From positions 440,920 through 504,919 of the forward strand of contig CAZZBM010000001.1 of assembly GCA_964652255.1 (NCBI GenBank): DNA of 64,000 nt, given 5' to 3'. The notes under the pieces are model-generated. The model was not told where the DNA came from. It worked only from the letters and a program-made list of their open reading frames with translations, and searched no databases. Source of the DNA: an uncultured bacterium (GTDB lineage: Bacteria; Bdellovibrionota; Bacteriovoracia; Bacteriovoracales; CAZZBM01). Numbering within the stretch: position 1 is the stretch's first letter; the number at the start of each line of letters is the position of its first letter. Shown piece after piece: positions 18,132 to 25,513 of this stretch. The position numbers were made by a program, and so were the translations under genes.

Positions 18132-18222
18132 GGAAGACTGGTCGAGTGGTTTAAGGCAGCAGTTTTGAAAACTGTCGTAGGTGATGAGCCTACCGGGGGT
18201 TCGAATCCCTCGTCTTCCGCCA
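18132..18222 (+). tRNA. tRNA-Ser (anticodon UGA), CCA encoded
   Basis: Manual cloverleaf fold. The acceptor stem is GGAAGAC/GTCTTCC. The anticodon stem GCAGT/ACTGT carries the loop TTTGAAA. There is a long variable arm, a T-arm with GGTTCGAATCC, and GCCA at the 3' end. Confidence 0.9.
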
Positions 18223-18286
18223 ACAATAAAATTCTCTCTTTTGTGCAAGCTTTTGCTTGATCTTTAAAAACAAGATATTATCAAGT

Positions 18287-19216
18287 ATGGCTTGGTTTTT
18301 GTTTCTTGTTCTTGTTCTAACTTTATTGATTCTTGATCTTGGTTTTTTTCATAAAAAAAATAAAATCATTGGCTTTAAAGAAAGTTTATGGATGAGTTGC
18401 TTTTATGTTTTTATTGCTATTATTTTTGGTTTTTGGGTTTGGTATTTAAAAGGACTAGATGCTTTTGCTCAGTATCTTACTGGTTTTCTTGTAGAAAAAT
18501 CACTAGCCTTAGATAATATTTTCTTAATTTCACTTATATTCTCTGCTCTTTCTATTCCTCTTAAGTATCAACATAGAGTTCTTTTCTGGGGGATTCTAGG
18601 AGTTATTGTTTTAAGGGCTATAATGATTGCTCTAGGTGTTCAAATACTTACTCATTTTGAATGGATTCTTTATTTATTTGCTGCATTTATGATTTTTACG
18701 GGAATAAAGATGTTTTTTGTTTCTCATAAGCCTGTGGATATCTCAAAAAATTTTTTACTCATTCAAATGAAAAAATACTTAAACTTAACAACTCAGTTTC
18801 ATGAAGAAAAATTTTTTATTCTTAAAAAAGACCCTAAGTCTCAAGGAAAAAAAATTTTTTTTACTCCTTTATTCATTGCTTTAATTATGGTTGAGTTTGT
18901 TGATTTAATTTTTGCCGTGGATAGTATTCCAGCTATCTTTTCTATTACTCAAGACCCTTATATTGTTTATACAAGTAATATTTTTGCTATTTTAGGTTTA
19001 AGAGCTCTCTATTTTGCTTTGGCTTCTATTATCGATCGTTTTTATTATTTAAAGCATGCCTTGGCTCTGGTGCTTATCTTTATTGGTTCTAAAATTTTCA
19101 TTGCTGATATGTTGAAAATTACAAAAATTCCGCCCATGATTTCTTTATTTATTACCTTATCATTATTAATGATAGGAGTTGTTCTCTCTTTATTTAAAAA
19201 AAGTAAAGCAAAATGA
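18287..19216 (+). CDS. terC: TerC-family membrane protein (Alx/TerC type)
   Basis: Motifs FLVEKSLALDNIFLISLIF and EFVDLIFAVDSIPAIFSIT. I prefer the ATG at 18287 to the TTG at 18257 used in the track. Confidence 0.8.
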   Translation: MAWFLFLVLVLTLLILDLGFFHKKNKIIGFKESLWMSCFYVFIAIIFGFWVWYLKGLDAFAQYLTGFLVEKSLALDNIFLISLIFSALSIPLKYQHRVLFWGILGVIVLRAIMIALGVQILTHFEWILYLFAAFMIFTGIKMFFVSHKPVDISKNFLLIQMKKYLNLTTQFHEEKFFILKKDPKSQGKKIFFTPLFIALIMVEFVDLIFAVDSIPAIFSITQDPYIVYTSNIFAILGLRALYFALASIIDRFYYLKHALALVLIFIGSKIFIADMLKITKIPPMISLFITLSLLMIGVVLSLFKKSKAK

Positions 19217-19671
19217 AAAAAGAATATATAAATTTATTTTTATGGATTACAGGCATTCTTTTAGTGGGTTCTCTCTTAGGATCTTTAACTAAGCCAGAGA
19301 TTAATAATTGGTATCTTTCTTTGAATCGATCTTCACTTAATCCCCCTAACTATGTTTTTCCCATAGCTTGGACTCTTTTATATATTTTAATTGGGATTAC
19401 TGGCTGGAAAATTTGGCAAAAAGATTCAACTTTATTAAAAGGCTTTTATTCTTTTCAATTATTTTTAAATTGGATTTGGACACCTCTTTTTTTCTATTAT
19501 CAATTAATTGGTTGCGCCTTGTTTGGTTTAATTCTCTTAGATCTGATAGTGTTTTCTCTTATTTGCTTCTCTTATTCGAAAATAAAATTAATAGTTTGGT
19601 TGATGCTTCCTTATTTTTTTTGGCTTCTATTTGCGACTTATTTGAATTTCTACATTTGGAAATATAATTAA
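19213..19671 (+). CDS. tspO: Tryptophan-rich sensory protein TspO/MBR family
   Basis: 152 aa with 5 TM segments. Motifs are LNPPNYVFPIAWTLLYILIGITGW and NWIWTPLFF. ATGA overlap with terC. Confidence 0.85.
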   Translation: MKKEYINLFLWITGILLVGSLLGSLTKPEINNWYLSLNRSSLNPPNYVFPIAWTLLYILIGITGWKIWQKDSTLLKGFYSFQLFLNWIWTPLFFYYQLIGCALFGLILLDLIVFSLICFSYSKIKLIVWLMLPYFFWLLFATYLNFYIWKYN

Positions 19672-19760: not shown

Positions 19761-20804
19761 GTGACCACTATAGAGAAAATCTATTTAGATGACATTGATG
19801 ATTTTGATAAAAAAGTAACAATACCTTCGTGGAATGAAATAAAAAGTCTATGGGGAGTCTCTCCTGTTGGACCATTGCATTTAGGGTATGATTCTTTAAT
19901 TGTTCTTCAAAGAAAAATCTTGGAAAAAAACCCAAAAAAGCATTTTATAGTTATAGCAGATATTCACTCAGCTTTATCCCATGGACTTAGTTGGTTAGAT
20001 CTTCGTCAAAGATGCTATTATTATGAATATTATTTAAGAGAAATTAGTTTTTTAAAACATTCTAACTATATTCTTGGTTCTTATTTTCAAACAAGGCCTA
20101 GTTATGTAGAGTCTCTTTATTCTTTATTGGGAAAAGTTTCTTTAAGATCTGTTATGGATACATTACCTGCTTACGTAAAAAAAAACAATATAGTCCCAGC
20201 TTCTGTGTCAATTTATTCTCTTATGCAATGCTTAGATGTTTTTTATTTAGAAACAAATTTTATAGTTGCAGATCGTGGTCAAGAAAAAATTTATGATTTA
20301 ATTTATGAATTTTATGATTGCAATGTTTTAAGGTTTGGAACAGAAACGAACTTAAAAGAACCCGAAAAAAAAATTACTTTTCTTTACATTCCCATTGCTT
20401 CTGACATTAAAGGGAGATCTTTAAAAGAAAGTTCCTCAGAAACAAGAACTTCTATTCATGACAGTAAAGATACTTTAGAAAAAAAAATCGATCATATGTA
20501 TGCTCCTCCTTATAATCAAATGATTTGTAAAGAAAAAATCAATGCTTGTTTAGAATTCTTTAAATATTCTGTTTTTCCTTGGATCGATGAAAAAATAAAA
20601 ATAGTGAATCAAAATGGTGTTGAGTTTTTATTTGAAAACTATAGAGAATTAGAAAAATGTTTTTATGAAGGTTTTTTATTTCCAAATGATTTAAAGAAAT
20701 CTTTAAAAGATTACTTATGGAAAAGATTGCAATTTATTCAAAACAGTCTTCAACAAGGGATCGATTTTTGGGTGGATAAAAAAAGGTTGAATAAAAATGA
20801 TTAA
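19761..20804 (+). CDS. Class Ic aminoacyl-tRNA synthetase-like protein A (archaeal/eukaryotic-type TyrRS-like, full length, degenerate KMSKS)
   Basis: GTG start, 347 aa. Aligned by eye to the recalled M. jannaschii TyrRS: GVSPVGPLHLGY (HIGH region), FIVIADIHSAL, YSLMQCLDVFYL, ADRGQEKI, LKESSS (in place of KMSSS). A C-terminal domain is present (YRELEKCF...LFPNDLKKSL). Confidence 0.7.
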   Translation: MTTIEKIYLDDIDDFDKKVTIPSWNEIKSLWGVSPVGPLHLGYDSLIVLQRKILEKNPKKHFIVIADIHSALSHGLSWLDLRQRCYYYEYYLREISFLKHSNYILGSYFQTRPSYVESLYSLLGKVSLRSVMDTLPAYVKKNNIVPASVSIYSLMQCLDVFYLETNFIVADRGQEKIYDLIYEFYDCNVLRFGTETNLKEPEKKITFLYIPIASDIKGRSLKESSSETRTSIHDSKDTLEKKIDHMYAPPYNQMICKEKINACLEFFKYSVFPWIDEKIKIVNQNGVEFLFENYRELEKCFYEGFLFPNDLKKSLKDYLWKRLQFIQNSLQQGIDFWVDKKRLNKND

Positions 20805-21600
20805 TTTTTTTAAAAAGCTTAAAAATTTAGGTATAAAAATTTCTATACAAAATAAAAATATTAAAAAGGTTTTTTGGGGTGTTGCTCCAACAGGGGATAT
20901 TCATATTGGATATTTGCCTTATATAGCAATTTTAAAAAAATTAAAATCAATGAATTTTGAAATAATGATTTTAATAGCAGATTATCATGGATATCTTGAT
21001 TCAGAAAAAACTCTTTTTTCTCAAATAGAAGAAAGAACTCAGAGATACTATCATTTTTTTAAAAGATTAGGTTTTTCTGATCAAGATATTGTTTTTGCAA
21101 AAGATGAATATTTAAAATCTTCCTACATAAATTCATTGTTTTTGTTTTCAAGATCTTTGAAATTAAATGAATCATTAAAATGTGCAAAAAAAACCTTAAA
21201 AAGTTTTATTAAAAAAAATTTTCATGTATCAGATGTTCTTTATGTTCTTACTCAAGTTTTTGATCTTGAATATTTTCAAGTTGACCTTGTTCTTTCTGGA
21301 ATAGATGAGTCTGGTGTTTATAAATTTGGAATTCCTATAATTGAGAAAAAAAATAAAAAAAAAATAAATACAATTTATTTTCCCATGATCAAAGGAGTTT
21401 TTGAAAAAGAAATGCATTCAAGTGATTGTGATGATAATAAAATTAATATTTTTGAAGATTTTGAAAGTGTTCTTAATAAAATAAAAAAAAACAATAGTTT
21501 AAAAGTTCAAATTAATAAAATTATATTTCCAATGTTTGAAATAAGCAAAAAAAACAAACCAGAAGAAATCGCTCATTCTTTGGTTGGTATTTGGAGCTAA
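20797..21600 (+). CDS. Class Ic aminoacyl-tRNA synthetase-like protein B (TyrRS-like catalytic domain only, no C-terminal domain)
   Basis: 267 aa, overlapping gene A by 8 nt. Motifs are GVAPTGDIHIGY, ILIADYHGYL, YVLTQVFDLEYF, KEMHSS (KMSKS-like) and INIFEDFESVLNKIKK. The protein ends about 35 aa after the last of these. Confidence 0.65.
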   Translation: MINFFKKLKNLGIKISIQNKNIKKVFWGVAPTGDIHIGYLPYIAILKKLKSMNFEIMILIADYHGYLDSEKTLFSQIEERTQRYYHFFKRLGFSDQDIVFAKDEYLKSSYINSLFLFSRSLKLNESLKCAKKTLKSFIKKNFHVSDVLYVLTQVFDLEYFQVDLVLSGIDESGVYKFGIPIIEKKNKKKINTIYFPMIKGVFEKEMHSSDCDDNKINIFEDFESVLNKIKKNNSLKVQINKIIFPMFEISKKNKPEEIAHSLVGIWS

Positions 21601-21604
21601 TTTA

Positions 21605-22678
21605 ATGATTAAAAAATCTAAAAAAATATCTAATGAGTTTTTAAAGATTTTAAATGAGAATAAAGAAATAATTTTTAAAACCTATTCTAAAGAAACTTCT
21701 TATTTGTTAAATGATATTAATTTTTTATGGGAAGATCTTGAAAAATATTTAACTTTTTTTAGTGAATCCTTGAATCAAAAGAAAAAAATATGGAATTTAG
21801 AAAAGAATTTTTATCAAAAATTTGAAAAAAAATGTGAATATCAAAGAGTAAAACATGGAAAAGTTCTACTTGTTTTGCCCTATAATGCAATTATACCCTT
21901 GTTGCCAATTTTTATTCTTTCTTTTTGTATTTTTGGCAATGAACTTATTGTAGCACCCAGTAGAAAATCTTTAAAAACAGTTACTTTGATATATTCTCTT
22001 TTAAAAAAAATATTAGATAAAAATGATTTTAAAGTTTTTATATTTAAAAAAGGTGGAGAAGATGCATTGAAAAGATATATTGATAAAATAGATCTTCTTT
22101 TTTTTCAAGGAAGTTCAAAAAAAAGAGATTTAATTTATGCTCAATGTTTAGAGCATAATACAGATATTATTTATGAAGGAGAAGGGGCTCAGGTTACAGT
22201 TATAGAAGATAATGTTGATGCTGAAAAAATAAAACAATGGCTTTCTTTTTGTCATGGTAAGCTTTGTACAACTCCAAAGATTTTTTTTATAAAAAAAAAT
22301 CTATATAAAAACTTTTTTAAAATAATAAAAAAGAACATTTCTCATATTCAGTTTACTGAGTTTAATCAAAAAAAAATTATAGAAAGTGTGCATTTAGATG
22401 AGGTTTTCATAGGTCCCTTTGAGGATCTTAAAGATCTTGTTTTTTATCTTAAAAGAAGGTATTCTTTTGGGTTGCAAATTTCTGTTTTTTCAAAAAAACC
22501 AAAAATTATAGAAGAATTTTTTTTAAACGAACTAAATATATCAAGAATTACTATTAATATCAATCCTACCTATCAAAATTCTCTTCTACCTTGGGGTGGT
22601 TATAAAAAATCAGGTTATAGTAGGGTCGGTGATTTTTTTGACAAGGCAACAAGAACAGTTATTGTAGAAAAAGTATGA
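21605..22678 (+). CDS. Aldehyde dehydrogenase-superfamily protein, N-terminally short (about 357 aa)
   Basis: GGAG lies 7 nt before the ATG at 21605. ALDH-like blocks are LVLPYNAIIPLLP, GNELIVAPSRKS, YEGEGAQVTVI (Glu), HGKLCTTPKIFFI (Cys), FGLQISVFSKK and LLPWGGYKKSGYSRVG. Confidence 0.6.
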   Translation: MIKKSKKISNEFLKILNENKEIIFKTYSKETSYLLNDINFLWEDLEKYLTFFSESLNQKKKIWNLEKNFYQKFEKKCEYQRVKHGKVLLVLPYNAIIPLLPIFILSFCIFGNELIVAPSRKSLKTVTLIYSLLKKILDKNDFKVFIFKKGGEDALKRYIDKIDLLFFQGSSKKRDLIYAQCLEHNTDIIYEGEGAQVTVIEDNVDAEKIKQWLSFCHGKLCTTPKIFFIKKNLYKNFFKIIKKNISHIQFTEFNQKKIIESVHLDEVFIGPFEDLKDLVFYLKRRYSFGLQISVFSKKPKIIEEFFLNELNISRITININPTYQNSLLPWGGYKKSGYSRVGDFFDKATRTVIVEKV

Positions 22679-23415
22679 ATTTAGAGAAAAAAGTTATTGT
22701 TGTTACAGGTGCTTCTAGTGGAATAGGTCTAGCAATAGCTAAAGAGCTTTCAAAAGATCATATAGTTATTCTTTTGGCTAGAAGAGAGAAAGTTTTAAAA
22801 GAAATAGTTAATGAAATGATTTTAGAAAAAAGAGAAGTTTCTTATCAAGTCACAGATGTTACCAAGATTGAAGAATTAGAGAGGGCTATAAATTTTGTTT
22901 TAGATCGTTATGGTCAAATTGATGTTTTAATTAATAATGCTGGAATTATGCCCCTTTCCTTTTTATCAGAGCAAAAAATTCATGAATGGGATCAAATGAT
23001 TGATACAAATGTTAAAGGCGTTCTTTATGGTATTTCAGTAGTTTTACCTATCATGAGAAAGAAAAAATCTGGACATATTATTTCTATTGCTTCTATTGCG
23101 GGTCATTTGGTGAAGCCAAGTTTAGCAGTTTATAGCGCGACCAAGCATGCTGTCTGCGCCATAATGGAAGGGTTAAGACAAGAGGAAGCTTTAGCAAAAT
23201 CTAACATTAGAGTCACAACTATTTCTCCTGGAGCTATTGGTACAAATTTATTAAGCACAATTACTTCATTGGATTTAAAAAATTCTTTTATAGAATTTTA
23301 TAAAAATTCTATCGATCCAGAAAGAATTGCAAAAATCGTTGCTTTTGTTATTAATCAACCTATAGATACAGCTATAAACGAAATTATTATTAGACCAACT
23401 CTTCAAGAGCCTTAA
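22675..23415 (+). CDS. Classical short-chain dehydrogenase/reductase
   Basis: Motifs VTGASSGIGLAIA (TGxxxGxG), NNAG and YSATKHAV (YxxxK). ATGA overlap with the ALDH-like gene. Confidence 0.85.
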   Translation: MNLEKKVIVVTGASSGIGLAIAKELSKDHIVILLARREKVLKEIVNEMILEKREVSYQVTDVTKIEELERAINFVLDRYGQIDVLINNAGIMPLSFLSEQKIHEWDQMIDTNVKGVLYGISVVLPIMRKKKSGHIISIASIAGHLVKPSLAVYSATKHAVCAIMEGLRQEEALAKSNIRVTTISPGAIGTNLLSTITSLDLKNSFIEFYKNSIDPERIAKIVAFVINQPIDTAINEIIIRPTLQEP

Positions 23416-23443
23416 AAGAGAGTCATGAAGATGACCCTCTTTT
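23415..23443. terminator. Bidirectional rho-independent terminator between the convergent SDR and hsp20 genes
   Basis: The arms AAAGAGAGTCAT and ATGACCCTCTTT flank a GAAG loop, giving a 12-bp stem with 1 mismatch. The hairpin is flanked by A/T runs on both strands. Confidence 0.6.
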
Positions 23444-23453
23444 AATATTTTCT

Positions 23454-24040: not shown

Positions 24041-24131
24041 GGAGATGTGGGTGAGTGGTCTAAACCAGCTCCTTGCTAAGGAGTCGAACCCTAACCGGGT
24101 TCCGTGAGTTCGAATCTCACCGTCTCCGCCA
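24041..24131 (+). tRNA. tRNA-Ser (anticodon GCU), CCA encoded
   Basis: Manual fold. The acceptor stem is GGAGATG/CGTCTCC. The anticodon stem GCTCC/GGAGT carries the loop TTGCTAA. There is a long variable arm, a T-arm with GTTCGAATC, and GCCA at the 3' end. Confidence 0.9.
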
Positions 24132-24142
24132 AATTATAGATT

Positions 24143-25513
24143 TTAAGGAAGTATCTGGTCTAGGACCTTATTGAAGACTTTTATAGGCTCTTCTTGGTTT
24201 TTATCAGGAGCAATTTGTTTTAACAGGGTATCTTTTGTGGCTTCAAAGGTTTTCTTGAGTAAGATTTTACTTAAGTGTTGTTGGTCCAGGGAATATTTAA
24301 GATCTTTGAAGGGTCCTATAACAAAAAATTTTAAAGAATCAATATTTTTAAAACCGGTGAAAGTATGATGGGTATTTAGTTTTTCAAAATCTATTGTTCC
24401 TGTGAAATCATTTTTCAAAGAACCAATATTTACAGAGCTATTATAAAAACTACCTTGGTTTTTACTCCAATTAAGATTAATGGCTCCTGTCAGAGCGTTA
24501 ATTTTTTTTTGAGAAAGATTTTTTTGTAAGGTTAAGATCTGATCTAAGGTTGGCATGGAAAGATTTTCAATTTGATTTTTAAAAAAATCAATATCATAGG
24601 TTTCAACAAGAATTTTTTTTATAAAAAGAGATGTTTTTCCTGAAAGTTCTTTTTTATTTAAATGATAAGTAATATTCCATTCTGAGTTAAGATTTGATTC
24701 TTGGACTGATAGTTGTTTCGAAAGATCAAGATTTTTACAAGAGCCTTTTAAGCTAAGAACAGAATTTTGAACTTGACCAGAGCTTTCACAAATACCCTTT
24801 TCCAAAGAAAAAGAGATGTTATGAATTTGAGTTGCTTCTTTTTTTTGAGAAATTTTTCCTGTAAAATTTTCTAAAAGACCATAAGGTGTTTTAATTTTTT
24901 TAGATTTCACATGAAGAAGAAGTTGTTCATTAAGGTTAATAAATATTTTTTCTGAAGAAAAATCAAGGTAATTTAAACCAAGGCTTCCTTTAACATGGAG
25001 TTGATCTTTTAAAGACAAGATAAGATCGAGATTTTTTAATAGATAGGACTCATAAGCAAGGGAACCTTTCACTTGTAAGGATTCAAAAGAAGGATCTGTT
25101 AAAAGATTAATTTTTATTTTAGAGCCTTTATCTTCTAAGGAACAATTTATTTTCTCTTTAATAAAACAAGTGCTTTTAAGATTAAGTTTTAAAGAATAAA
25201 GGATTAAATCTTCTATTAAAATTGTAACTTTGCTAATAGGTTTTTTAAAAAAGTAATGAAATAAAATTTCTTTTAAAGAAACTTCAAGAGAGATTTTTTT
25301 CAAAGGATCTTTTAAAAAAATTGTTTTTAAAGAAGGAATTTTGATAATAACTTTTGGAAAAATTTTTAAATCAAAATCTCCACAAAGTTCTATATTATAT
25401 TTTTTTAATTCATCTTCAGCTAATGAATGTATTCTTTCTTTATCTAAAAAAAAATATAAAGATGTAAAAAGTATAATTATAGTAAAGAGTAAGAAATAAA
25501 TTTTTTTTGACAT
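24143..25513 (-). CDS. AsmA-family-like envelope protein with N-terminal TM anchor
   Basis: N-terminal anchor KKIYFLLFTIIILFTSLYFFL, followed by a beta-rich repetitive sequence. The segment GDFDLKIFPKVIIKIPSLK resembles the start of AsmA proteins. Confidence 0.45.
   Translation of the reverse strand: MSKKIYFLLFTIIILFTSLYFFLDKERIHSLAEDELKKYNIELCGDFDLKIFPKVIIKIPSLKTIFLKDPLKKISLEVSLKEILFHYFFKKPISKVTILIEDLILYSLKLNLKSTCFIKEKINCSLEDKGSKIKINLLTDPSFESLQVKGSLAYESYLLKNLDLILSLKDQLHVKGSLGLNYLDFSSEKIFINLNEQLLLHVKSKKIKTPYGLLENFTGKISQKKEATQIHNISFSLEKGICESSGQVQNSVLSLKGSCKNLDLSKQLSVQESNLNSEWNITYHLNKKELSGKTSLFIKKILVETYDIDFFKNQIENLSMPTLDQILTLQKNLSQKKINALTGAINLNWSKNQGSFYNSSVNIGSLKNDFTGTIDFEKLNTHHTFTGFKNIDSLKFFVIGPFKDLKYSLDQQHLSKILLKKTFEATKDTLLKQIAPDKNQEEPIKVFNKVLDQILP

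What the first reader, a model, noticed from the sequence alone, without database searches (positions are those of the whole stretch)
21605..23415. N-terminally short ALDH-like protein and an SDR in the same tight operon as the aaRS-like pair
Seen in sequence:
- The four genes 19761-23415 have gaps or overlaps of -8, +4 and -4 nt.
- They end in a clear bidirectional hairpin terminator at 23415-23443.
- The ALDH-like protein keeps the catalytic Cys block (HGKLCTTPK), a Glu block (YEGEGAQVTVI) and the C-terminal PWGGYKKSG block.
- It is only about 357 aa, roughly 100 aa shorter than typical ALDHs.
- The SDR is a complete classical SDR.

Established knowledge: ALDH-fold enzymes can run in the reductive, acylating direction on activated acyl groups, as in LuxC-type acyl reductases and gamma-glutamyl phosphate reductase. 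Glutamyl-tRNA reductase shows that an aminoacyl-tRNA ester can be reduced to an amino aldehyde.

Inference (speculative): the operon could convert an aaRS-activated aromatic amino acid (adenylate or tRNA ester) into an amino aldehyde and then an amino alcohol, or oxidise such a product. I do not recognise this gene combination as a described pathway.
Basis: partly seen in the sequence, partly recalled or inferred. Interest (0 to 1): 0.7.

Follow-up and report, generated by a model that had tools for sequence, protein, structure and literature searches.

The report
Rare mobile tyrosine-reduction gene cassette
The aldehyde-dehydrogenase-like gene and the reductase next to it belong to a very rare, undescribed gene cassette built around copies of the tyrosine tRNA-charging enzyme; it moves between distant bacteria and most likely turns tyrosine into a reduced small molecule, though no product has been shown.

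Summary
Four tightly packed genes (19761-23415) end in a strong hairpin. They are two TyrRS-derived proteins (B, C), a 357-aa ALDH-like protein with Cys/Asn/Glu intact, and a complete SDR.

The synteny test passes. About 18 distinct loci from Bdellovibrionales, Acidobacteriota, Dyadobacter and metagenomes keep the order [true TyrRS A]-B-C-ALDH-like, followed by an optional SDR and sulfotransferase or phosphoesterase. Many sit next to mobile-element genes. The families are tiny: 12 ALDH-like and 6 C hits in 5.8 billion proteins.

A was replaced at least three times by unrelated true TyrRSs, so tyrosine is the likely substrate. B and C keep the tyrosine pocket but lack the KMSKS lysine. Distant relatives keep a B + ALDH-like + SDR triad and include ALDH-alcohol-dehydrogenase and ALDH-sulfotransferase fusions.

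Best model (inferred, about 0.4): TyrRS makes Tyr-tRNA; B/C present it to the ALDH-like cysteine; reduction gives tyrosinal, then tyrosinol, sometimes sulfated. The extra TyrRS would supply substrate and/or give immunity, as AcmD/AcmF do in ascamycin biosynthesis.

The cassette appears undescribed.

The parts
19761..20804 (+). B: TyrRS-derived protein (347 aa) with an archaeal-type catalytic domain plus the C-terminal anticodon-binding-like domain. HIGH-like HLGY is at aa 40-43. Tyr-pocket residues YSLMQCLD are at aa 152-159 and GQEKIY at 173-178. The KMSKS position reads LKESS, with no lysine in register.
   Evidence: Pfam PF00579 E 1.7e-13. NCBIfam archaeal-type TyrRS PRK08560 scores 128 bits against a cutoff of 220, covering profile 32-331/342. 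Orthologues are 38-54% identical in every cassette. Motifs.
20797..21600 (+). C: TyrRS-derived catalytic-domain-only protein (267 aa). HIGY is at aa 36-39, the Tyr pocket YVLTQVFD at 149-156, Q173 is replaced (IDESGVY at 169-175), and the KMSKS position reads the family-invariant E-M-H-[AS]-S (aa 205-209).
   Evidence: Pfam E 1.2e-24. PRK08560 scores 105 bits against 220, covering profile 27-248/342. Only 6 hits in 5.8e9 proteins; five belong to the cassette family and the sixth is a weak 400-aa match (31% identity) on a 1.4-kb contig that was not examined. AF2 model pLDDT 85.3. The top 50 PDB matches are all archaeal/eukaryal TyrRS, TMq 0.65-0.77.
21605..22678 (+). ALDH-like protein (357 aa), a member of a small divergent 'EGEGN / FCxGxxC / QNSLLPWGG' clade of the ALDH superfamily. 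Proposed role: thioester-forming reductase acting on the tyrosyl group.
   Evidence: PF00171 scores 76-77 bits. 12 hits in 5.8e9 proteins and 75 representatives at E<=1e-30 among 1.84e9. AF2 pLDDT 85.6, pTM 0.84. ALDH fold confirmed at TMq 0.68-0.79. Invariant N94, E191, C216, C221.
22247..22279 (+). Catalytic Cys block FCHGKLCTTPK (C221 corresponds to ALDH Cys302), with a second family-invariant Cys (C216) five residues upstream.
21950..21967 (+). VAPSRK, the equivalent of the ALDH 'KPSE' cofactor motif. Lys192 is replaced by Ala and Glu195 by an invariant Arg120.
   Evidence: Profile alignment to PDB 6k0z; invariants P118, S119, R120.
22675..23415 (+). Classical SDR (246 aa) of YdfG type, with TGASSGIG, NNAG, Ser and YSATK. 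LLARRE after beta-2 predicts NADP(H) use. Proposed role: carbonyl reductase for the second reduction step.
   Evidence: adh_short 179 bits; motifs. More than 7,900 clusters at E<=1e-30, many named YdfG. Only 24-28% identical to the SDR family of other cassettes. Its closest relative (63% identity) also follows an ALDH-like gene in L033-L035.
23412..23445 (.). Hairpin flanked by A and U runs between the convergent SDR (+) and Hsp20 (-) genes; a likely bidirectional intrinsic terminator marking the end of the operon.
   Evidence: -15.9 kcal/mol, z -4.67.

Best explanation
The four genes are the window's version of a rare, horizontally mobile biosynthetic cassette dedicated to tyrosine.

Proposed mechanism (inferred, not shown):
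1. A true TyrRS charges tRNA-Tyr. It is encoded in the cassette in nearly all relatives; in the window it would have to be the host enzyme.
2. The two TyrRS-derived proteins B and C no longer activate amino acid, because the KMSKS lysine is lost. They still have a tyrosine pocket, and B has an anticodon-binding-like domain. They would bind Tyr-tRNA-Tyr, probably as a B/C pseudo-dimer, and present the tyrosyl ester.
3. Cys221 of the ALDH-like protein takes the tyrosyl group as a thioester. Reduction with NAD(P)H gives tyrosinal.
4. The SDR reduces tyrosinal to tyrosinol.
5. In relatives, a sulfotransferase (with PAPS-supply genes nearby), a phosphoesterase or a glycosyltransferase-like protein tailors the product.

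The cassette-borne TyrRS would supply substrate and/or protect the producer, because tyrosinol-type compounds compete with tyrosine on TyrRS.

Shown here: gene content, order, conservation, mobility, motif states and folds. Inferred: substrate, direction of the redox steps, tRNA dependence, the B/C heterodimer, the product and its target.
For: 1. Conserved module. The order A-B-C-ALDH-like with an optional SDR and tail gene recurs in about 18 distinct loci from different phyla. A B + ALDH-like + SDR triad persists in distant 57-59% GC loci L018 and L036.
2. Tyrosine. The upstream synthetase passes curated TyrRS cutoffs: TIGR00234 at 291-311 bits against 113.8, or PRK08560 at 372-392 against 220. 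It keeps HLGH plus KQSKS, LMSKT or KMSKS. It has been replaced at least three times by unrelated TyrRS types, while one clade is 56-65% identical across phyla, more than B, C or the ALDH-like protein. Mosaic exchanges are seen in L019 and L022.
3. B and C motif states. In 14/14 C and 17/19 B sequences the residues at Mj positions Tyr151, Gln155 and Asp158 match by pattern (two divergent B members did not match it), and an HIGH-like H-[IL]-G-[YF] is kept in all but L004's B. All lack the KMSKS lysine; C has E-M-H-[AS]-S in 13/14. C has a TyrRS fold. B covers the whole archaeal TyrRS model including the C-terminal domain.
4. ALDH-like chemistry. Cys302, Asn169 and Glu268 equivalents are invariant, and the fold is ALDH. 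LuxC (acyl reductase) is a secondary Pfam hit in 7/12 members.
5. Two-step reduction plus sulfation logic. Relatives fuse the ALDH-like domain to a Zn-ADH (seven cases) and to a sulfotransferase (one case). Two unrelated SDR families occupy the slot after the ALDH-like gene. Both SDR types have Arg after beta-2, the NADP(H) signature by the Kallberg/Persson classification, which I recall from memory. Sulfotransferases, an APS kinase or CysNC/CysD lie nearby.
6. Precedent. In the ascamycin cluster an extra true AlaRS (AcmD) makes Ala-tRNA and is the resistant copy, while a truncated AlaRS-like protein lacking most ATP-site residues (AcmF) uses that aa-tRNA. SbzA does likewise for Ile (PMC12945691).
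7. Tyrosinol binds TyrRS competitively: Kd 40 uM against 22.6 uM for Tyr on human YARS1 (PMC12966498). PDB 1q11 is human TyrRS with tyrosinol.
Against: - There is no biochemical or metabolite evidence of any kind.
- The adenosine half of the NAD(P) site is remodelled (K192 to A/S, E195 to R120, G250 to R174). The E399 region falls in the segment deleted in the window's short form. Cofactor use is therefore unproven.
- By sequence and Foldseek the protein is no closer to known reductive or acylating ALDH-fold enzymes than to hydrolytic ALDHs. NCBIfam gives no ProA or acylating-ALDH hit; SucD is only one of many similar hits. The retained Glu268 equivalent is also compatible with a hydrolytic, oxidative ALDH.
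- ALDH-ADH fusions do not fix the direction of the reactions.
- The window lacks A and any sulfotransferase.
- The Asp286-equivalent anticodon contact in B is conserved in only about 7 of 12 sequences.
- HIGH-like motifs are retained in B and C, so residual ATP use cannot be excluded.
- The SDR is absent from the closest relatives L013 and L014 and from L006. The alcohol step is therefore optional.
Confidence: 0.4

Rival explanations
1. AcmF/SbzA-type transferase model. A makes Tyr-tRNA, and B and/or C transfer the tyrosyl group from tRNA onto a small-molecule acceptor drawn from primary metabolism. The ALDH-like protein, SDR and sulfotransferase make or tailor that acceptor or the conjugate rather than reducing the tyrosyl carboxyl. 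The product would be a Tyr-AMP mimic that inhibits TyrRS, and A would be the immunity copy.
For: There is a direct precedent for a true aaRS paired with a truncated aaRS-like transferase, with sulfur chemistry in the same cluster (PMC12945691). B and C have lost the KMSKS lysine but keep the Tyr pocket. C has an invariant His in the former KMSKS loop that could act as a general base. Sulfotransferase, APS-kinase and PAPS genes occur in several cassettes. A is swapped among TyrRS types, as expected of a resistance gene.
Against: Minimal cassettes (L013/L014: A-B-C-ALDH-like only) contain no enzyme able to build an acceptor. The invariant partner of B is always the Cys-bearing ALDH-like protein, which is most simply the acyl acceptor itself. 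The sulfotransferase is optional.
Confidence: 0.2
2. Adenylate route, analogous to ProB/ProA or LuxE/LuxC. B or C still activates tyrosine with ATP to Tyr-AMP, without tRNA, and the ALDH-like protein reduces the mixed anhydride. The cassette TyrRS would serve only as immunity.
For: An HIGH-like motif and His70, Tyr151, Gln155 and Asp158 equivalents are retained in both B and C. No tRNA-Tyr gene is found in any locus. There are chemical precedents for ALDH-fold enzymes reducing acyl phosphates or activated acyl groups: ProA and LuxC, from established knowledge, with LuxC as a Pfam secondary hit.
Against: The KMSKS lysine, needed for transition-state stabilisation in class I synthetases (established knowledge), is missing in every B and C. 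The co-encoded true TyrRSs keep it. B keeps an anticodon-binding-like domain, which would be pointless without tRNA. In L036 a separate PP-loop ATPase precedes the B-like gene.
Confidence: 0.15
3. Not a biosynthetic pathway. The cassette would be a mobile defence, counter-defence or translation-protection module, for example sensing or rescuing tRNA-Tyr charging during phage attack or toxin exposure. The ALDH-like protein would act as a thiol esterase on Tyr-tRNA.
For: Cassettes sit next to reverse transcriptases and DUF4325 (L001), a type I/IIG restriction-modification system (L033), an integrase (L010), and ICE or plasmid genes (primase, ParA, TraG, ArdC). ALDHs have NAD-independent esterase activity (established knowledge). 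The cofactor site is remodelled.
Against: No core gene matches any PADLOC model. The cassette is absent from 2.9 million viral contigs. The SDR, alcohol-dehydrogenase fusions, sulfotransferase, PAPS genes and an MFS exporter are typical of small-molecule pathways, not of known defence systems.
Confidence: 0.1
4. In this particular window the block is a decaying or inactive remnant. It lacks the TyrRS and tail genes, and the SDR is merely an adjacent ordinary YdfG-type gene.
For: There is no A and no sulfotransferase in the 64 kb. The SDR belongs to a huge housekeeping-type family. C and the ALDH-like gene have lower GC than the background (z -2.2 and -1.7) while the SDR does not (z +0.6).
Against: B, C and the ALDH-like protein are full length and keep every family-invariant residue. 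The genes overlap (ATGA) and share one terminator. The same YdfG-type SDR (63% identity) follows the ALDH-like gene in L033-L035. Any host has a housekeeping TyrRS that could supply Tyr-tRNA.
Confidence: 0.1

Closest known systems
Ascamycin AcmD/AcmF and SB-203208 SbzA (aaRS-like enzymes in aaRS-inhibitor biosynthesis; PMC12945691)
   Same: These clusters carry an additional true synthetase alongside a truncated or divergent paralog of the same synthetase with an impaired ATP site. The true copy supplies aa-tRNA and is the resistant enzyme. Sulfur-activating or sulfur-transfer genes sit in the same cluster.
   Different: Those are AlaRS (class II) and IleRS paralogs in Streptomyces, which acylate a sulfamoyl or sulfonamide acceptor. 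Here there are two different TyrRS (class Ic) paralogs, obligatorily partnered with an ALDH-fold Cys enzyme. No acceptor-building genes are present. The cassette is a 4-6 gene mobile unit in Bacteroidota, Bdellovibrionales and Acidobacteriota.
GluRS / glutamyl-tRNA reductase (HemA) of the C5 tetrapyrrole pathway
   Same: The proposed chemistry is the same: an aminoacyl-tRNA ester is attacked by an enzyme Cys, and the thioester is reduced by NADPH to an amino aldehyde.
   Different: GluTR has an unrelated fold and no Pfam GluTR match is found here. The proposed reductase here is ALDH-fold and would need retired synthetase paralogs to present the substrate. This is a working analogy, not family membership.
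ProB/ProA and LuxE/LuxC (ATP-dependent acyl activation followed by an ALDH-fold reductase)
   Same: An ALDH-fold Cys enzyme runs in the reductive direction on an activated acyl group made by a dedicated partner. LuxC is a weak secondary Pfam hit in 7/12 family members.
   Different: There is no NCBIfam ProA hit, and the window protein itself does not reach LuxC at E<=1. The partners here are TyrRS paralogs, not a kinase or an acyl-protein synthetase.
AdhE-type ALDH-ADH bifunctional enzymes, and carboxylic acid reductase / NRPS R-domains
   Same: Both convert acyl to aldehyde to alcohol. Relatives of this ALDH-like protein are fused to a Zn-ADH.
   Different: AdhE uses acyl-CoA and an Fe-ADH. 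CAR and NRPS enzymes use adenylation, carrier and SDR-type R domains. None of these uses synthetase paralogs.
Pseudo-dimeric TyrRS of trypanosomatids (from memory) and cyclodipeptide synthases
   Same: The pseudo-dimer shows division of labour between two non-identical TyrRS-like halves, one binding the anticodon and the other handling the acceptor end. CDPSs are TyrRS-fold enzymes that use aa-tRNA and have lost the ATP motifs.
   Different: Here the two halves are separate genes and neither keeps the KMSKS lysine. C matches TyrRS and not CDPS in both Pfam and Foldseek, and HIGH-like motifs are retained.

Membership tests
Aldehyde dehydrogenase superfamily (PF00171) | Pfam score above the gathering threshold, and the ALDH fold | tested here: met
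   76-77 bits against a cutoff of 23. AF2 model pLDDT 85.6. Foldseek TMq 0.68-0.79 to many solved ALDHs.
Aldehyde dehydrogenase superfamily (PF00171) | Catalytic Cys302, oxyanion Asn169 and general-base Glu268 equivalents | tested here: met
   C221, N94 and E191 are invariant in 12/12 members and align to these positions in PDB 6k0z and 3pqa.
Aldehyde dehydrogenase superfamily (PF00171) | Canonical NAD(P) site: Lys192, Glu195, G245-S246-x-x-x-G250, Glu399 | tested here: inconclusive
   F167, G169 and S170 are kept. Lys192 is replaced by Ala/Ser, Glu195 by invariant Arg120 and Gly250 by invariant Arg174. The Glu399 region falls in the segment deleted in the short forms. No ligand modelling was possible.
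Known reductive or acylating ALDH-fold families (ProA, LuxC PF05893, CoA-acylating ALDH) | Sequence membership through a family model hit | tested here: not met
   NCBIfam gives no ProA or acylating-ALDH hit, and all hits lie far below their cutoffs. LuxC is only a weak secondary hit in 7/12 relatives (best E 1.1e-5) and does not match the window protein.
Tyrosyl-tRNA synthetase (for B and C) | Score above the curated equivalog cutoff | tested here: not met
   B scores 128 bits and C 105 bits against the PRK08560 cutoff of 220. The cassette A proteins pass.
Tyrosyl-tRNA synthetase (for B and C) | Class I signature motifs HIGH and KMSKS | tested here: not met
   An HIGH-like H-[IL]-G-[YF] is kept, but the KMSKS lysine is absent in all 19 B and all 14 C sequences. 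C reads E-M-H-[AS]-S. True TyrRSs from the same loci keep KMSKS, KMSAS, KQSKS or LMSKT.
Tyrosyl-tRNA synthetase (for B and C) | Tyrosine-binding pocket (Mj Tyr32, Tyr151, Gln155, Asp158, Gln173) and fold | tested here: inconclusive
   Tyr151, Gln155 and Asp158 equivalents are conserved in both. Tyr32 is replaced by Leu/Met/Ile in B and Phe/Leu in C. Gln173 is kept in B and becomes Glu in C. For C, the top 50 PDB matches are all TyrRS. Mj numbering comes from a sequence recalled from memory and was cross-checked against the cassette's true archaeal-type TyrRSs.
AcmD/AcmF-type pair (true aaRS plus aaRS-like aa-tRNA-dependent enzyme) | An extra true synthetase of the same specificity encoded next to the paralog | tested here: inconclusive
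   Met in nearly all related loci. Not met in this window: tblastn finds no TyrRS in the 64 kb.
AcmD/AcmF-type pair (true aaRS plus aaRS-like aa-tRNA-dependent enzyme) | The paralog uses aa-tRNA as acyl donor, and the product inhibits the cognate synthetase | not testable with these tools
   This needs enzymology and metabolite identification.
Classical SDR (for 22675-23415) | TGxxxGxG, NNAG and the Ser-Tyr-Lys triad | tested here: met
   TGASSGIG at aa 11-18, NNAG at 87-90, Ser in SIASIAG at 137-143, YSATK at 153-157. adh_short scores 179 bits. The nearest named homologues are YdfG-type.
Cyclodipeptide synthase | CDPS family model or fold match | tested here: not met
   Pfam gives only PF00579, and there is no CDPS among the top 50 structural matches of C.
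Known anti-phage defence systems (PADLOC) | A match to any defence-protein model | tested here: not met
   There are no hits for B, C, the ALDH-like protein, the SDR, A or the sulfotransferase. Only the accessory metallophosphoesterase of L012 hits a generic candidate model.

The most novel reading that the evidence does not exclude
An ALDH-fold enzyme acts as a second, independently evolved aminoacyl-tRNA reductase. Two catalytically retired TyrRS paralogs hold Tyr-tRNA-Tyr and feed its tyrosyl ester to the enzyme's cysteine. The result is tyrosinal, tyrosinol or tyrosinol sulfate, made by a 4-6 gene mobile cassette as a TyrRS-directed antimetabolite, with the co-transferred TyrRS serving as both substrate supplier and immunity protein.
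Probability: 0.25. Interest if true: 0.85.

Novelty: new variant of a known kind. Interest (0 to 1): 0.72.

Why it matters
If the model is right, several things follow.
- It would add a new enzymatic route from an amino acid to an amino aldehyde or alcohol, using neither NRPS/CAR machinery nor GluTR.
- It would be a new use of retired tRNA-synthetase paralogs as substrate-presenting subunits.
- It would be a compact, mobile gene set for a probable TyrRS-targeting compound with a built-in resistance gene. Self-resistance-guided genome mining looks for exactly this kind of signal.
- It would give a functional handle on an uncharacterised ALDH clade of about 75 representative clusters, and on two TyrRS-derived families that databases currently call 'tyrosyl-tRNA synthetase' or 'hypothetical protein'.

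One host, Dyadobacter sp. 32, has an isolate genome (NCBI NZ_LR735258.1). If the strain is available, the hypothesis is directly testable.

Tried and rejected
- PADLOC scan of core and accessory proteins: nothing for the core genes.
- Rfam scan for a T-box or other leader near the cassettes: only tRNAs (the first attempt exceeded the size limit).
- tRNA search for a dedicated tRNA-Tyr: none in any locus.
- Viral contigs with both the ALDH-like and B profiles: none.
- PLSDB plasmids by tblastn with the ALDH-like protein and B: none.
- Exact look-up of the window proteins gave no names or organism, so the window's organism remains unidentified.
- Literature searches for the gene combination found nothing specific.
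C was modelled instead.
- I first concluded that the window SDR was a chance neighbour, because it is only 24-28% identical to the SDRs of other cassettes and is absent from L013/L014. I rejected this after finding its 63%-identical relative in the same position in L033-L035.
- Composition gave only weak evidence of a separate history for C and the ALDH-like gene versus the SDR, and I did not rely on it.
- A sulfotyrosine-charging or genetic-code idea was dropped. The sulfotransferase is optional, there is no tRNA gene, and Asp158 is retained.


Full report
**1. The observation**

The region contains four same-strand ORFs:
- 19761-20804, 347 aa, referred to here as B
- 20797-21600, 267 aa, referred to here as C
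- 21605-22678, 357 aa from the ATG (an upstream TTG at 21584 is an alternative start)
- 22675-23415, 246 aa

The junctions are -8, +4 and -4 nt. A GGAG lies 8 nt upstream of ATG 21605, and the last junction is ATGA. Directly after the SDR stop codon, 23412-23445 folds into a hairpin flanked by A and U runs. It folds at -15.9 kcal/mol with z = -4.67, and none of 200 shuffles folds as well. The rule-based terminator scan missed it. It lies between the convergent SDR and Hsp20 genes.

Pfam calls the four proteins tRNA-synt_1b, tRNA-synt_1b, Aldedh and adh_short.

There is one correction. The ALDH-like protein is short for two reasons:
- About 50 model positions are missing at the N-terminus (the Pfam alignment starts at position 54 of 461).
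- About 50 residues are missing after the catalytic Cys. Longer family members of 406-419 aa still carry this segment.

**2. Rarity and conservation**

The ALDH-like protein has only 12 relatives among 5.8 billion clustered proteins. C has only 6: five belong to the cassette family, and the sixth is a weak 400-aa match (31% identity) on a 1.4-kb contig that I did not examine. An exhaustive profile search of 1.84 billion representatives finds 75 at E<=1e-30, forming a divergent ALDH clade with signatures EGEGN, FCxGxxC[ST]xP and often QxxxLPWGG.

Every neighbourhood I could read has the same layout:
- a full-length synthetase (A)
- then B, C and the ALDH-like gene
- then, variably, an SDR
- then a sulfotransferase (L001, L010, L006), a metallophosphoesterase (L012, L022, L025), or a weak GT4-like gene (L017)
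- with an APS kinase nearby in L004

Hosts named by the records are a Bdellovibrionales MAG, an Acidobacteriota MAG, a Bacteroidia bin and Dyadobacter sp. 32.

Many flanks look mobile or island-like:
- integrase (L010)
- primase, ParA and TraG (L006)
- primase and ArdC (L017)
- reverse transcriptases and DUF4325 (L001)
- a restriction-modification system (L033)

The cassette is absent from viral contigs and from PLSDB plasmids.

In the window it lies between two tRNA-Ser genes. It lacks A and any sulfotransferase; tblastn finds neither in the 64 kb.

**3. The synthetase genes**

A passes the curated TyrRS thresholds in every case tested. It is bacterial-type at 291-311 bits against 113.8 in four loci, and archaeal-type at 372-392 bits against 220 in two. 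It keeps HLGH/HLSH/HIGY/HLGT together with KQSKS, LMSKT, KMSAS or KMSKS.

Four A proteins from different hosts are 56-65% identical to each other. That is more than B, C or the ALDH-like protein between the same loci (32-52%). Other cassettes carry unrelated TyrRS types, and mosaics exist: L019 combines an L010-type A with an L013-type B, and L022 is similarly mixed. The function required is therefore TyrRS activity itself, which points to tyrosine.

B and C are separate orthologous families, with 38-55% identity to the window's copies. Both derive from archaeal-type TyrRS but score far below the cutoff. In a MAFFT alignment with the cassette's own true archaeal-type TyrRSs, and with the M. 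jannaschii sequence recalled from memory, the following holds:
- Both keep H-[IL]-G-[YF] in all but L004's B, and residues matching the Tyr151, Gln155 and Asp158 positions in 17/19 B and 14/14 C sequences.
- Tyr32 is replaced by an aliphatic or Phe residue.
- Gln173 is kept in B but is Glu in C.
- The KMSKS lysine is absent in all B and C sequences. C instead has a near-invariant E-M-H-[AS]-S.

B spans the whole TyrRS model including the C-terminal domain, while C stops after the catalytic domain. The AF2 model of C (pLDDT 85.3) matches only archaeal/eukaryal TyrRS structures in the top 50. No CDPS appears.

**4. The ALDH-like protein**

The AF2 model is confident (pLDDT 85.6, pTM 0.84) and has the ALDH fold (TMq 0.68-0.79). 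Profile alignment to solved ALDHs places residues as follows:
- N94, E191 and C221 at the Asn169, Glu268 and Cys302 positions
- a second invariant Cys (C216) five residues upstream of C221
- Lys192 replaced by Ala/Ser
- Glu195 replaced by invariant Arg120
- Gly250 replaced by invariant Arg174
- the Glu399 region inside the segment deleted in the short forms

Thioester chemistry is therefore plausible, but cofactor binding is unproven. The basic substitutions would suit NADPH but could serve another anionic ligand. No known reductive ALDH-fold family claims the protein. LuxC is a weak secondary match in 7 of 12 relatives.

**5. The SDR**

The window SDR is a complete classical SDR from the very large YdfG-type family. 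It is only 24-28% identical to the SDR family found in other cassettes, whose members are 52-86% identical to each other and 36-48% identical to those of L018 and L036. The closest cassette relatives, L013 and L014, end at the ALDH-like gene.

I first read this as a chance neighbour. However, the SDR's closest homologue (63% identity) also follows a C gene and a 364-aa ALDH-like gene in L033-L035. So two unrelated SDR families have been recruited to the same slot. That argues for a functional need for a carbonyl reductase.

Both SDR types carry Arg after beta-2. By the Kallberg/Persson classification, which I recall from memory, this is the NADP(H) signature.

**6. Wider relatives**

- L018 (59% GC) has a radical-SAM gene, an aminotransferase, a B-family protein, the cassette-type SDR, an MFS transporter and an ALDH-like-sulfotransferase fusion. 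CysNC and CysD are transcribed divergently.
- L036 (57% GC) has a PP-loop ATPase, a B-family protein, an ALDH-like protein and the cassette-type SDR.
- Seven further relatives fuse the ALDH-like domain to a Zn alcohol dehydrogenase.

The conserved core is therefore B + ALDH-like + a second reductase, with sulfation as a frequent final step.

**7. Mechanism**

The best-supported reading is a tRNA-dependent reduction of tyrosine in four steps:
1. TyrRS makes Tyr-tRNA.
2. B/C bind it and present the ester.
3. Cys221 forms a thioester that is reduced to tyrosinal.
4. The SDR gives tyrosinol, which some cassettes sulfate.

The closest documented logic is in the ascamycin cluster, as described in PMC12945691. 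AcmD is a true extra AlaRS that makes Ala-tRNA and is the resistant copy. AcmF is a truncated AlaRS-like protein lacking most ATP-site residues that uses that Ala-tRNA. SbzA plays a similar role in SB-203208 biosynthesis.

The chemistry would parallel GluRS/GluTR, ProB/ProA and LuxE/LuxC (established knowledge). Tyrosinol competes with tyrosine on TyrRS (PMC12966498). That makes an immunity role for A plausible.

All of this is inference. The rivals remain open:
- tyrosyl transfer to another acceptor
- a tRNA-independent adenylate route
- a defence or quality-control role
- an inactive remnant in this window

**8. Novelty and verdict**

No family model, defence catalogue or paper in the searched library describes this cassette. 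Source databases label its proteins 'tyrosyl-tRNA synthetase', 'aldehyde dehydrogenase family protein' or 'hypothetical protein'.

It is best filed as a new variant of a known kind: clusters that combine a true aaRS with retired aaRS paralogs. The ALDH-fold partner could make it more than that.

Interest is high for aaRS and natural-product specialists. The mechanism is only moderately supported.

Noticed in passing
window 18132-18222 and 24041-24131: Two tRNA-Ser genes (anticodons tga and gct) bracket the block TerC-TspO-B-C-ALDH-like-SDR-Hsp20. tRNA genes are common integration sites, so the whole 6-kb stretch might be an island.
   Followed up: partly
window 18257-19671: TerC-family membrane protein and TspO/MBR protein overlap by 4 nt directly upstream of the cassette, separated from B by an 89-nt gap with no predicted terminator. 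They could be co-transcribed with it.
   Followed up: no
window 22247-22267 (aa 215-221 of the ALDH-like protein): A second cysteine (C216) five residues before the catalytic Cys is invariant in the 12 close relatives and common in the wider clade (FCxGxxC). It replaces the Asn usually found in the ALDH 'FxNxGQxC' block. A thiol relay or a redox switch are possibilities.
   Followed up: partly
L012 1-441; L022 432-974; L025 447-851; L026 145-681; L030 420-950: Cassettes with an archaeal-type TyrRS are preceded by a small ORF. In L022 and L025 it scores as a retropepsin-like aspartyl protease (gag-asp_proteas, E 1e-8 to 1e-10). The ORFs at the same position in L012, L026 and L030 were not scanned, so their identity is assumed from position only.
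   Followed up: no
L001 6323-12375: Downstream of the L001 cassette lie two unknown ORFs, a DUF4325 protein and two large reverse-transcriptase (RVT_1) genes, which looks like a defence island.
   Followed up: no
L029, L030, L032: These copies of the L012-type cassette have B, C, the ALDH-like gene and (in L030) A split into fragments at about 95-99% identity (77% for the C fragment of L032). They are either decaying pseudogenes or assembly frameshifts.
   Followed up: no
L036 114-800: A Dph6-like PP-loop ATPase (Diphthami_syn_2) sits directly upstream of the B-like gene in a cassette that lacks A and C within the contig. It could be an alternative ATP-dependent activating enzyme.
   Followed up: no
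L018 275-13974: The distant cluster combines a radical-SAM enzyme, an aminotransferase, an MFS transporter, a CDP-glycerol glycerophosphotransferase-like gene and a fatty-acid desaturase with the B-like, SDR and ALDH-sulfotransferase genes. This suggests a more elaborate sulfated product.
   Followed up: no
window 24143-25513 (-): A 456-aa ORF with an N-terminal hydrophobic segment has no Pfam match at E<=0.01.
   Followed up: no
window ALDH-like aa 331-338 (22595-22618); C aa 202-206 (21400-21414): The only very low-confidence stretches in the two AF2 models are the conserved GGYKKSGY loop of the ALDH-like protein and the former KMSKS loop of C. Both are loops that might become ordered only on binding a partner or ligand.
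   Followed up: no
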